Below are positions 33,208 to 38,464 of a DNA stretch of 64,000 bases, one piece after another (position 1 is the first letter of the stretch; each line of letters begins with the position of its first letter). Under the pieces are notes generated by a model that saw only the letters and a program-made list of their open reading frames with translations, was not told the origin of the DNA and ran no database searches. Origin of the DNA: Promethearchaeota archaeon (GTDB lineage Archaea > Asgardarchaeota > Lokiarchaeia > Sigyniarchaeales > SOKP01); assembly GCA_016839765.1 (NCBI GenBank), contig JAEOTP010000016.1, positions 134,785-198,784 of the forward strand, written 5' to 3'. A program made the position numbers and the translations under genes.

Positions 33208-34917
33208 TTATTCCTTTACCGTCTCTAAAAGTTCCTCAATTTCAGACTGAATTTCGTCTGGTTTCTTCGCTTCTTCTCCTTGAATGGCTAAGGCGCGCTC
33301 TAAGCGCTCCCTATGAAGTGTATTCATGGCGCAGAATGGAACCTCTAAGACTTTTGATGAGTCCTCTGGATCAATCACGCCGTAATGGACAAGACAGCGG
33401 CAAACTCTATCTAAGTCAAAATTGTAAGAATCTTGAAAATGCATCGAGCTAATTAAAAGATTTTTCTCGTGAAAGAATTTCCCAGCAGATTGAAGATTGG
33501 GAAAAGCAATCAGGCGAGAGAATGCTATTAGCGTTTTACTTGTTAACAATTTCGTAGGATTACGTACGTATCTCATAGCCCCGGCAAAATAGTAAGCTTT
33601 CATCATCTGACGATATCCTAAGCTCGTTATATCATCGACAAACTTTCCTATCGTACTTGCGATACTCCCAAACTCCTCTAAATTGATACCCTTGAGGAGT
33701 CCAGTAGGTTTAGGAACTTCTTGTTTCTGGGCCATATCATATACTTTATTTGACCACCGGATGAGCCCTTCCGCGTCAAAGTAGTTTTCAATTGGTTCCC
33801 ACTCATCCTTGGCATTGATAACGCAAATTGTCGCAAATCCGCAATCTGAGTGGCTGGTTGGGCTCCACTCAGGCACATCGTCGAACCATGCTAATAATCG
33901 TGTCATTTTAGCGGTGGTTGCTAACGGATAGAATTTGGTAATTGCATTATTTGTGTGTTTATTTATTGCTATTTTCAAATCTGAGGTTGTATATCGTATA
34001 TCCATCAACTCTTCAAAGCTTATGCGACCACATAGAGATACAGGTTGATAAATAATTCCAGAAATAACATCATTATTGTCTTTAGCATAGTCCATAATCT
34101 TTCCAACTTCTTGATCATTTACTCCTTTAGCTATTACTGGGACTAACATTACACCATAAAATCCTATTTTTCTGGCATTCTCAATCACTCTTTGTTTTAA
34201 AGGCCAAAGATTTACGCCTCTTATCTTTTTCCATACTTCAGGGTTATCAGTTGCATCGAATTGCAAATATATAGCATCCATTCCAGCATCTTTGCATTGT
34301 TTCATAAATTCAATTGACTTGGCAAATCTAACTCCATTGGTGGTAACCATAACTTCAATAAAGCCTAATTCTTTACCTTTTCGAATGATCTCAGGGAGAT
34401 CATCTCTAATTGTAGGTTCTCCACCAGAAATTTGTAATAAAACGGCTGCTGTGGGTTTCATTGATCTAAAATGCTCCATGATCTGGACAATTTGATCATA
34501 CGTTGGTTGGACAACGTATCCCTTTGCACTAGCATTAGCAAAACAAATCGGGCACGCTAGATTACACCTATTAGTGATATCAATTAAACAAATATTAGGG
34601 GCGCTTTTATGGTTTTCACAAATTCCACAATCATAAGGGCAACCTTCATTACATTCCTTTATTCCCGAAGAGACATACTCAGGTTTTGTAGTATGATCTA
34701 CTGTAGAACCAATCTCATCCGTAAATGTTTGCTGCCATTTATATTCTTCTGGATCTATACTAAGTTTATCTTTAAAATCTCCGTGTTCTTCACAATTTTT
34801 CCTCATCATTACCCAATTTGTATTATCATCGACGTAGATTTCGGCTGCTATTGGCTGTAAGCATTCTGGACATATACTTGTTGTGCGTCTTATAATTTCT
34901 TCAGTCATAAGTATCAT
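33208..34917 (-). CDS. tes: Tetraether lipid synthase (GDGT macrocyclase, MJ0619/Tes radical SAM family)
   Basis: SICPEC...KNCEEHG, GCPYDCGICENH, TNRCNLACPICFANA, HSDCG, MHFQD.YNFDLDRV.RC..HY, VPFCAMN. Confidence 0.88.
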   Translation of the reverse strand: MILMTEEIIRRTTSICPECLQPIAAEIYVDDNTNWVMMRKNCEEHGDFKDKLSIDPEEYKWQQTFTDEIGSTVDHTTKPEYVSSGIKECNEGCPYDCGICENHKSAPNICLIDITNRCNLACPICFANASAKGYVVQPTYDQIVQIMEHFRSMKPTAAVLLQISGGEPTIRDDLPEIIRKGKELGFIEVMVTTNGVRFAKSIEFMKQCKDAGMDAIYLQFDATDNPEVWKKIRGVNLWPLKQRVIENARKIGFYGVMLVPVIAKGVNDQEVGKIMDYAKDNNDVISGIIYQPVSLCGRISFEELMDIRYTTSDLKIAINKHTNNAITKFYPLATTAKMTRLLAWFDDVPEWSPTSHSDCGFATICVINAKDEWEPIENYFDAEGLIRWSNKVYDMAQKQEVPKPTGLLKGINLEEFGSIASTIGKFVDDITSLGYRQMMKAYYFAGAMRYVRNPTKLLTSKTLIAFSRLIAFPNLQSAGKFFHEKNLLISSMHFQDSYNFDLDRVCRCLVHYGVIDPEDSSKVLEVPFCAMNTLHRERLERALAIQGEEAKKPDEIQSEIEELLETVKE

Positions 34918-35073
34918 TTTTTATTTTTTTTTTTAATAAAAACATTATTTAATTAAAAGGTTAGTTAACTTTTCTATAAAAATTTTTTATATAAAATAAT
35001 ACTTGGATTAGTATTATTATTTTCTTTTATGTTTTTTAATAAGAAATATCAAAAATCATGATTATCAGGTGAA

Positions 35074-35102
35074 TTTTATCATGATTATTAATCATGATAA
35101 AA
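35074..35102. promoter_or_regulatory. Perfect 29-bp palindrome TTTTATCATGATTA-T-TAATCATGATAAAA, with a third ATCATGAT at 35055
   Basis: 14-bp perfect arms, about 160 bp upstream of tes. Confidence 0.6.
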
Positions 35103-35246
35103 AAAATAGAAAAAATAGAAACCTAAACTTTCTCTTTTTTACTTTTTAGCATAACAAATTATTTGTTAAAGGCTCAATATTAATAATTTTTTGCATTAGG
35201 TACAAAATTAAATAAAAAAGTTTTATTTCTTGATTTTTTAAGGGGA

Positions 35247-35399
35247 GACTCCTGCCACCAAGACCTAATAATAAGGTCAGAAACAAAATAGGGGGAGGAG
35301 GGCGAAATCAGAGTGTGTTTTTACACACTACCAAAAGACAAAAATCCAGGGTAGTGACAGGAGTCATGTTATTAAATCTTTATTTCTCTCCCTATTTTG
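35247..35399. ncRNA. Putative structured non-coding RNA / cis-regulatory element
   Basis: GC-rich island with five complementary segment pairs (see findings); strand uncertain. Confidence 0.5.
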
Positions 35400-35639
35400 A
35401 TTTTAATTTTATTAATAATACTTTTTAAATTTTTATCTTATAATGGAAATAAATAATGATTCAAAATGGAAATTAAAAATCTTTATTATGAAATAAATAG
35501 ATTTGGAGATATTTAAAATAATTGTCGAATTTTGAAAATTTTTATTGACAGAATAGTGAAAATTTGCTGGTATTAATTTATGAAAATACTTAAGTCTTAG
35601 TAAACTAATAAAATGATTTAATATTTTAAAGATATAACT

Positions 35640-37306: not shown

Positions 37307-38464
37307 TTATTCTTCTTTCTTTTTCTCCTCGATTTTTTTGATTTCCCCTTCGATCTTTTCACTTATTCCCTTTATATCAGGCTTAATTTCCATTCGCTTT
37401 AAATCTTCTTCTCGTTGTTTGTCTCTTCTAAAAGCTTTTTCACTAATTATCTTTTCAATTGCTTCTCCTGCTTTTTCTAAATCTGGCTTTAATTCCAATC
37501 TTTTCATATCTTCCTCACGTTGTTTATCAATTCTAAAAGCTTTCTCACTTATCGTTTTTTCAATGGCTTGACCAACTTTTTCCAAATCTGGTTTAATTTT
37601 TTTACGTTCTTCTGCCGCCTCACGTTGCTTTTCTAATCTAAATGCTTTTTCACTCACTGATTGGCTTATTACCTCACTTGCTTTTTCTACATCTGGTTTC
37701 AATTCCATTCTTTTTTGATCTATCTCTCTTTGTTTATCTATTCTAAATGCTTTTTCTGCTACGGTTTTACTTATTGCCTCTCCTGTTTTTCTAAAGTCTG
37801 GTTTCAGTTCCAATCTTTTCATATCTTCCTCACGTTGTTTATCAATTCTAAAAGCTTTCTCACTTATCGTTTTTTCGATGGCTTGTCCAGCTTTCTCTAG
37901 ATCAGGTTTTATTTTAAATCGTTGGGAGTCGCTTTCCTTCTTTTTCTCAATTAAAAAAGCTTTTTCATCGATGGATTTACTAATTGCTTCGCTTGTTTTT
38001 TCTAAATCTGGTTTAATCTTAAGCCTTTGAGCATCACTTTCTCTCTTTTTTTCTATCATGAATACTTTTTGGTCAACAGATTTACTTATAACCTCTCCAG
38101 TACCTTTTATATCCGGTTTTAGTTCTATTCTTTGTAAATCTTCTTCACGCTGCTTCTCTCGTAAAAACGCTTTTTCACCAATTGTTTTTTCAATAGCACT
38201 TCCTTTTTGTTCTATATCAGGTTTTATTTTCATTCTTTCTAGATCTTTTTCTCGTTGTTTCTCTCGCAGGAAGCTTTTTTCTGAAATCAAATTGGAAATT
38301 AGATCTTTGCTTTCTTCAAATGCCTTTTTTCTTTGTTCTTCAGTTAGTTTAAGATATTGTTCTCTTTCTTCTTTTTCTTTTTTATAAAGTTCATTAACAA
38401 TTTTTTTTTGTTTTTCAATTTCTTCTGGAGTTAAATGATTTTCATTTTCTTCCAATTTCCTCAC
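37307..38464 (-). CDS. Highly charged protein made of 35-aa tandem repeats
   Basis: Eight full exact-length 35-aa units plus partial units at both ends; consensus KPDLEKaGeAIeKtIsEKAFridKQREeDxkRxei. Confidence 0.85.
   Translation of the reverse strand: MRKLEENENHLTPEEIEKQKKIVNELYKKEKEEREQYLKLTEEQRKKAFEESKDLISNLISEKSFLREKQREKDLERMKIKPDIEQKGSAIEKTIGEKAFLREKQREEDLQRIELKPDIKGTGEVISKSVDQKVFMIEKKRESDAQRLKIKPDLEKTSEAISKSIDEKAFLIEKKKESDSQRFKIKPDLEKAGQAIEKTISEKAFRIDKQREEDMKRLELKPDFRKTGEAISKTVAEKAFRIDKQREIDQKRMELKPDVEKASEVISQSVSEKAFRLEKQREAAEERKKIKPDLEKVGQAIEKTISEKAFRIDKQREEDMKRLELKPDLEKAGEAIEKIISEKAFRRDKQREEDLKRMEIKPDIKGISEKIEGEIKKIEEKKKEE
37385..38224 (-). repeat. 105-bp tandem coding repeat (8 full units)
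   Basis: Repeated units visible in the DNA; a ~70-nt identical stretch recurs at 37501 and 37816 (315 bp = 3 units apart). Confidence 0.9.

What the first reader, a model, noticed from the sequence alone, without database searches (positions are those of the whole stretch)
35247..35399. Switch-like structured non-coding element upstream of the tetraether lipid synthase gene
Seen: a GC-rich island in a ~720-bp AT-rich intergenic region carries five stems. A: GACTCCTGCCAC (35247-58) / GTGACAGGAGTC (35354-65), fully paired with one G-U on the minus strand. B: CAAAATAGGGGGAG (35284-97) / CTCTCCCTATTTTG (35386-99). Hairpins: GACCT/AGGTC (35262-78) and AGTGTGT/ACACACT (35312-29). CACTACC/GGTAGTG (35326-56) overlaps and competes with both stem A and the AGTGTGT hairpin. 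A and B interleave (A-B-A'-B'), implying a pseudoknot or mutually exclusive folds. A 19-codon minus-strand mini-ORF (35367-35308, MTPVTTLDFCLLVVCKNTL) starts at the stem A arm. Inference: an undescribed riboswitch, thermosensor, attenuator or sRNA, possibly controlling diether-to-tetraether lipid conversion, about 330 nt upstream of tes on the same strand.
Basis: partly seen in the sequence, partly recalled or inferred. Interest (0 to 1): 0.8.

Follow-up and report, generated by a model that had tools for sequence, protein, structure and literature searches.

The report
Multi-copy small RNA of Lokiarchaeia
The folded stretch beside the lipid-synthase gene is most likely the gene for its own small RNA (about 120 nt), not a switch for that gene; it is found in almost every genome of two Asgard archaeal families, matches no catalogued RNA, and carries an invariant U-rich box resembling the site that Sm proteins bind in eukaryotic small nuclear RNAs.

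Summary
The stems are real (fold z = -5.1), but this is not a tes riboswitch. It is a stand-alone ~119-nt structured RNA gene on the minus strand (35365-35247). A covariance model finds it in 123 of 131 genomes of the host's Lokiarchaeia family (1-18 copies), and a diverged form in the sister family, including a genome matching Ca. Lokiarchaeum ossiferum. Downstream genes fall into 85 families and 61 of 175 are on the opposite strand; genes get inserted between it and tes. The closing helix and two hairpins covary. One unpaired 19-nt U-rich box is invariant in the host's family (68 of 70 hits found without it). Stem B is a genus-level pairing with an upstream leader; the competing stem and the mini-ORF are not conserved. 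A sequence complementary to the invariant box sits upstream of many copies, about 100-fold enriched. No Rfam match, no paper found. Best guess: a processed stable RNA whose U-rich box binds an Sm-like ring (about 40%; binding and transcription untested). This scan noted the family before on other genomes.

The parts
35247..35365 (-).
   Evidence: Fold z -5.1; covariance model family; ends inferred, not mapped
35352..35365 (-). P1 5' arm; preceded by A-U and starting with G in most homologs
   Evidence: all 10 counted pairs show changes on both sides
35247..35260 (-). P1 3' arm
   Evidence: 93% of cells paired
35331..35349 (-). Box 1: invariant unpaired U-rich 19-mer containing AUUUUUG (Sm-site-like); shared core with the sister family is two U tracts around GUC, then GG
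   Evidence: 68 of 70 exact among hits found without using it
35312..35329 (-). Hairpin P2 directly 3' of Box 1
   Evidence: 5 of 5 pairs with two-sided changes; also in the sister family; absent in minimal copies L119, L129, L068
35291..35311 (-). UGAUUU box and C-rich anti-Shine-Dalgarno-like tract; common but variable; a hairpin in the sister family; missing in the genome's own paralog
   Evidence: SD-type words enriched 10-20 nt before start codons in this genome
35279..35290 (-). Second U-rich single strand (inner arm of stem B)
35262..35278 (-). Hairpin P3 (5 bp, 7-nt loop)
   Evidence: covaries
35229..35246 (-). Pyrimidine-rich 3' trailer, possible terminator or processing region
   Evidence: N-C-C follows P1 in about three quarters of homologs; function inferred
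35386..35399 (-). Leader segment complementary to the second U-rich strand (outer arm of stem B); mostly limited to the host genus
   Evidence: 88% paired with one clear compensatory column in 32 genus-level sequences; 19 of 95 family-wide at p<=0.05
35426..35439 (-). Upstream segment complementary to Box 1 over 14 nt (with G-U), overlapping a TATA-like run at about 35422-35429
33208..34917 (-). Neighbour only: Tes-family radical SAM gene, one of two paralogs in the genome
35640..36017 (+). Neighbour only: divergent 125-aa membrane protein gene, the most constant neighbour at the home locus
   Evidence: 63 loci; no Pfam or NCBIfam hit

Best explanation
A stand-alone gene for a stable small structured RNA of two Lokiarchaeia families, not a cis-regulator of tes (about 0.85 for this part). 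Most likely mechanism (about 0.4): it is transcribed from its own promoter as a precursor whose leader pairs with the U-rich loops; trimming and formation of the end-closing helix P1 expose Box 1, which is bound by an Sm-like protein ring, giving an RNP that acts in trans as a scaffold or a sink for that ring, in many copies possibly aided by the C-rich tract pairing with ribosome-binding sites. SHOWN: structure, covariation, strand, invariance of Box 1, multi-copy dispersal with upstream DNA, independence from tes, upstream complement of Box 1. INFERRED: transcription, ends, processing, Sm binding, any target.
For: Covariation in both subfamilies: 137 two-sided cells vs 35 shuffled and 105 vs 37. 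G-U:A-C 112:40. 123 of 131 family genomes, 1-18 copies; sister family. Mixed downstream orientation and 85 families. Box 1 invariant while stems vary. Paralogs carry 90-200 bp of shared upstream DNA, with a BRE-TATA-like run about 150 nt before Box 1 in the G008 and G017 sets. Upstream complement of Box 1 in 47 of 176 copies vs 0.26% expected, 0 of 31 tRNA and 6 of 1828 ORF upstream regions; sense strand only. Four Sm-family genes in this genome. SmAPs bind U-rich single-stranded RNA (PMC3710371). A hairpin directly 3' of a U-tract is the snRNA arrangement (own knowledge).
Against: No expression data and no binding data. Box 1 matches the AU(4-6)G core but not the strict RAU(3-6)GR consensus; 11 of its 19 nt are U, so the likeness can arise by chance. 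Sm genes are in all Asgard genomes searched, also those without the RNA. Box 1 is longer and more invariant than an Sm ring needs, which may point to base pairing or another protein. The upstream complement is absent in the sister family and only 53% of its mismatches are wobble-type against 27-41% in controls. The C-rich tract is dispensable.
Confidence: 0.4

Rival explanations
1. Stand-alone RNA whose invariant Box 1 is a guide or decoy for something other than Sm: it base-pairs with one conserved RNA or DNA target, or binds a single specific protein (Y-RNA-like or 6S-like behaviour).
For: Near-total invariance of 15-19 unpaired nt; closed ends with large pyrimidine-rich loops; a copy on a 225-kb viral contig (L177).
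Against: No complement in this genome within 3 mismatches outside the two RNA genes; no pairing to 16S or 23S rRNA above shuffled controls; no TROVE/Ro60 gene in a 96% complete genome; Box 1 complements are not enriched before ORFs.
Confidence: 0.3
2. A mobile or recombination module: Box 1 is a DNA (or ssDNA) site for a recombinase or regulator, the upstream complements are further copies of that site, and the stems fold in single-stranded DNA.
For: Extra copies are 200-300 bp modules at unrelated sites, some in tandem, one pair flanking a passenger gene (L391); chimeric or partial copies break at Box 1 (L395, L313, L320).
Against: One copy stays at a syntenic home locus across each family, more conserved than its flanks. 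No target-site duplications or terminal inverted repeats seen in the flank alignments. Tyrosine integrase genes are not near the copies. No transposase or RT among recurrent neighbours.
Confidence: 0.12
3. Cis-acting riboswitch, thermosensor or attenuator controlling the tes-like gene.
For: tes-like gene is first downstream and co-oriented at 52 loci; alternative fold with leader; stem B has one compensatory column in the genus.
Against: Inserted genes in both orientations; 61 of 175 convergent neighbours, 85 families; different locus in the sister family; competing stem in 6% of homologs; ORF not conserved; distances to co-oriented genes range from about 20 to 1600 nt.
Confidence: 0.05
4. RsaE/RoxS-like translational repressor: the C-rich tract pairs with Shine-Dalgarno sites, the U-rich box is secondary.
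For: CCUCC-type tract in most host-family copies and many sister-family copies; the genome uses SD sequences.
Against: The tract is lost or changed in many copies, including the genome's own paralog (L031) and minimal copies; it is partly paired in the sister family.
Confidence: 0.13

Closest known systems
Sm-class small nuclear RNAs (U1, U2, U4, U5; U7 with its AUUUGUC-type site, from memory) and SmY RNAs
   Same: Small, multi-copy, dispersed genes; an unpaired AU-tract-G site followed by a hairpin; host has several Sm paralogs.
   Different: Ends are closed by a helix; strict RAU(3-6)GR not met; no sequence or Rfam similarity; archaeal host with no spliceosome; binding untested.
Y RNAs, stem-bulge RNAs, vault RNAs
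   Same: About 100-130 nt, 5'-3' closing stem, large pyrimidine-rich loops, U-rich trailer, multi-copy.
   Different: No TROVE protein found; the bulge in P1 is not conserved; no tRNA-like domain; no Rfam hit.
RsaE/RoxS and Hfq-dependent bacterial sRNAs
   Same: Own gene, C-rich anti-SD-like tract, U-rich stretch for an Sm-fold protein.
   Different: The U-rich site is internal and invariant, the C-rich tract is optional; closed ends.
5S rRNA
   Same: About 119 nt, closed by a terminal helix, multi-copy and dispersed.
   Different: Different fold; canonical 5S genes exist separately in G044 and G055.
Riboswitches and thermosensors
   Same: Upstream of a co-oriented metabolic gene at the home locus; alternative pairing with a leader.
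   Different: No consistent regulated gene, orientation or distance.

Membership tests
Riboswitch / cis-regulator of tes | Consistently upstream of, and co-oriented with, functionally related genes | tested here: not met
Riboswitch / cis-regulator of tes | Conserved competing stem (expression platform) | tested here: not met
   7-bp stem in 16 of 277; stem B genus-limited
Riboswitch / cis-regulator of tes | Ligand- or temperature-dependent switching | not testable with these tools
   needs probing
Leader-peptide attenuator | Conserved short ORF | tested here: not met
Any Rfam 15 family | Covariance-model match | tested here: not met
Sm-class snRNA-like RNP | Conserved unpaired AU(4-6)G core with a 3' hairpin | tested here: met
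Sm-class snRNA-like RNP | Strict RAU(3-6)GR consensus | tested here: not met
   G is followed by U
Sm-class snRNA-like RNP | Sm proteins encoded; co-occurrence with the RNA | tested here: inconclusive
   present here but in nearly all Asgard genomes searched
Sm-class snRNA-like RNP | Physical binding of an Sm ring | not testable with these tools
   needs pull-down or gel shift
Y RNA / vault RNA | TROVE (Ro60/TEP1) partner in the genome | tested here: not met
   (genome 96% complete)
5S rRNA | RF00001 match and fold | tested here: not met
rRNA-guiding RNA (C/D, H/ACA, U3-like) | Complementarity to rRNA | tested here: not met
   at shuffle level
MITE / non-autonomous IS | Terminal inverted repeats, target-site duplication, unstable position | tested here: not met
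   fixed home locus; none seen in flank alignments (by eye)
Stand-alone structured ncRNA gene | Covarying structure, strand signal, conservation above flanks | tested here: met
Stand-alone structured ncRNA gene | Transcript observed | tested here: inconclusive
   no RNA holder listed

The most novel reading that the evidence does not exclude
Lokiarchaeia have an snRNA-like particle: a dedicated multi-copy small RNA with an internal Sm site that is loaded with a (possibly heteromeric) Sm ring, its loading gated by a leader that masks the site until processing. It would be an archaeal small RNA built around an Sm site, and testable in cultured Asgard strains.
Probability: 0.25. Interest if true: 0.92.

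Novelty: new variant of a known kind. Interest (0 to 1): 0.7.

Why it matters
Non-coding RNAs of Asgard archaea are almost undescribed, and the natural RNA partners of archaeal Sm proteins are an open question (PMC3710371; PMC9887622 calls SmAPs poorly characterized). A near-universal RNA of two Lokiarchaeia families with one invariant U-rich box, present in a genome matching a cultured strain, gives a concrete candidate to test with existing RNA-seq and simple binding assays. It is not shown to be ancestral to eukaryotic snRNAs: it was not found in other Asgard classes searched.

Tried and rejected
Rfam at E<=10 and on six homolog loci: chance hits only. Expression: no RNA holder listed; the one run laid covered the start of tes, not the element; this is no evidence either way. 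Sigma-70 and intrinsic terminator scans are not informative for archaea. I first read the upstream AAGAUAAAAAUUUA run as the general promoter; it is rare before ORFs and tRNAs, so that reading was dropped, though it may still overlap a TATA box. Distant homologs: three models and two patterns over 150-300 Asgard genomes gave only control-level hits, mostly inside ORFs, outside the two families; the G194 hit lies antisense in an ORF. NCBI labels such as Hermod-, Hod-, Thor-, Odinarchaeota on pattern hits are not trusted: one such contig has the same length and element position as a contig of a same-genus genome (L103 vs L047). Bulge-helix-bulge, HDV-like ribozyme, T-arm and IS200/IS605 right-end readings were considered by eye and did not fit across homologs. 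Literature searches found no description; the library is incomplete. Viral hits were chance except L177.

Full report
Observation. The island has 33-42% GC against 10-21% around it. The unit closed by stem A, read on the minus strand (35240-35368), folds at -40.8 kcal/mol, z -5.1. Rfam has no match. The neighbour is a full-length homolog of the solved tetraether synthase 7TOL but scores below the NCBIfam Tes cut-off, while a paralog elsewhere passes it; calling it tes is reasonable but not certain.

Family. BLAST found the element in 35 of 36 same-genus genomes, mostly in several copies. An exact 19-nt pattern returned over 100 loci, nearly all Promethearchaeota. A covariance model from 84 sequences hits 123 of 131 genomes of the host family, with 1-18 copies. 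This genome has a second copy on contig C25. A diverged form occurs in most genomes of the sister family. One of them, G055, is a closed 6.0-Mb genome with three 16S and three 23S genes, two in operons, as described for Ca. Lokiarchaeum ossiferum (PMC9834061); G044 (closed, 4.4 Mb) is probably MK-D1, from memory of its size. Searches with three models and two patterns found nothing above control level in the other Asgard genomes searched. One 225-kb viral contig carries a copy.

Structure. P1 (ends), P2 and P3 covary: 19 of 20 pairs have two-sided changes, 137 cells against 35 in shuffles, and slid registers fall to about 40% paired; the sister family gives 105 against 37. These counts are on related sequences and are not probabilities. 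G-U outnumbers A-C 112 to 40, which fixes the minus strand. Between the helices lie unpaired pyrimidine-rich strands. Box 1 (35349-35331) is invariant in the host family: among hits found with a query lacking it, 68 of 70 were exact. The sister family keeps the core of two U tracts around GUC followed by GG, with the tract lengths shifted by one, and a UGAUUU box after P2. Minimal copies keep only P1 and Box 1, so Box 1 in a closed loop is the essential part.

The 7-bp competing stem forms in 16 of 277 homologs. The ORF has no start in 36 of 129 and uses all frames. Stem B is real within the genus (88% paired, one compensatory column) but is significant in only 19 of 95 family members. Its outer arm lies upstream of P1, so it is a leader-to-loop pairing; with the leader attached the predicted fold gives up P1 for B. 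A second upstream element was found: a 13-14 nt complement of Box 1 (35426-35439), present in strict form in 47 of 176 copies against 0.26% expected, and almost absent before tRNAs and ORFs, on the sense strand only. In one paralog group it starts about 43 nt before Box 1, too close to be the TATA box of the P1-closed RNA; in two others a separate BRE-TATA-like run lies about 35 nt further upstream. That favours RNA pairing in a precursor, but its mismatches are only moderately biased to wobble, it is absent in the sister family, and a DNA-site reading remains open.

Not a tes regulator. Of 197 loci, the next gene is co-oriented in 114 and convergent in 61, and belongs to 85 families; tes-like is first in 52. 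The home copy stays beside the divergent 125-aa gene while other genes are inserted between it and tes. The sister family keeps its home copy between pfk and a convergent THUMP gene. Extra copies are modules of 200-300 bp that include upstream DNA, sometimes in tandem, so they arose by DNA duplication rather than retroposition; integrases are not nearby.

Mechanism. Shown: a conserved, stranded, closed-end structure presenting one invariant U-rich strand, independent of its neighbours. Inferred: own promoter, leader-masked precursor, trimming to P1, and a protein ligand for Box 1. The best candidate ligand is an Sm-like ring: the genome has four Sm-family genes, archaeal Sm rings bind U-rich single strands (PMC3710371), and a U-tract followed by a hairpin is the snRNA layout (own knowledge). 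Against this, the strict consensus is not met, Sm genes do not track the RNA, and nothing was measured. I give 0.85 to a stand-alone RNA gene and 0.4 to the Sm-bound mechanism. A guide role found no target: no complement in the genome, none in rRNA above shuffles; no Ro60; 5S rRNA is separate. Expression could not be assessed.

Novelty. No Rfam family and no paper found in nine searches of an incomplete library. Earlier notes of this scan describe what appears to be the same family on other genomes; they are unchecked AI notes and not independent support. New here, as far as those notes show: the sister-family form in a cultured strain, the rejection of the tes link by context counts, and the upstream complement of Box 1. 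Verdict: real, undescribed, not a tes switch; interest 0.7.

Noticed in passing
window 35055-35102 and 35152-35168: Three ATCATGAT boxes in a long palindrome and a separate palindrome between the RNA and tes; the 8-mer is absent from 13 of 15 homologous loci checked, so it is not a conserved operator.
   Followed up: partly
L408:1623-3386 (G000:C64): Second Tes-family gene in this genome, above the NCBIfam Tes cut-off (472.5 bits), 42% identical to the window's gene.
   Followed up: partly
L031:2761-2881 (G000:C25): The genome's second copy of the RNA, lacking the C-rich tract, just upstream of a carbon-nitrogen hydrolase gene.
   Followed up: yes
L177:7-145: A copy of the RNA on a 225-kb viral contig with phage-like hypothetical genes; host not checked.
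   Followed up: partly
L391:2910-5339: Two direct 300-bp copies of the promoter-plus-RNA module flank a 403-aa gene whose N-terminus looks like an AlbA/Schlafen-type domain (by eye).
   Followed up: no
L395:2400-2520, L313, L320: Chimeric or partial copies that begin or end at Box 1, as expected of recombination or integration at the most conserved part.
   Followed up: partly
L056, L050, L105, L150, L146, L153: Some copies carry an extra inserted hairpin after P2 or inside the C-rich tract; in L056 a near-copy of the insert also lies in the leader.
   Followed up: no
L182-L185: Three short Sm paralogs (87-100 aa, keeping the Asn and Arg of the U-binding motifs by eye) plus a longer 139-aa one; only one lies beside rpl37e.
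   Followed up: partly
window 37307-38464: 385-aa ORF of charged tandem repeats of about 30 aa.
   Followed up: no
L103, L141 and other genome-contig hits: Several records labelled Odin-, Hermod-, Hod- or Thorarchaeota, or even bacteria, appear to be Lokiarchaeia contigs (mislabelled or misbinned).
   Followed up: partly
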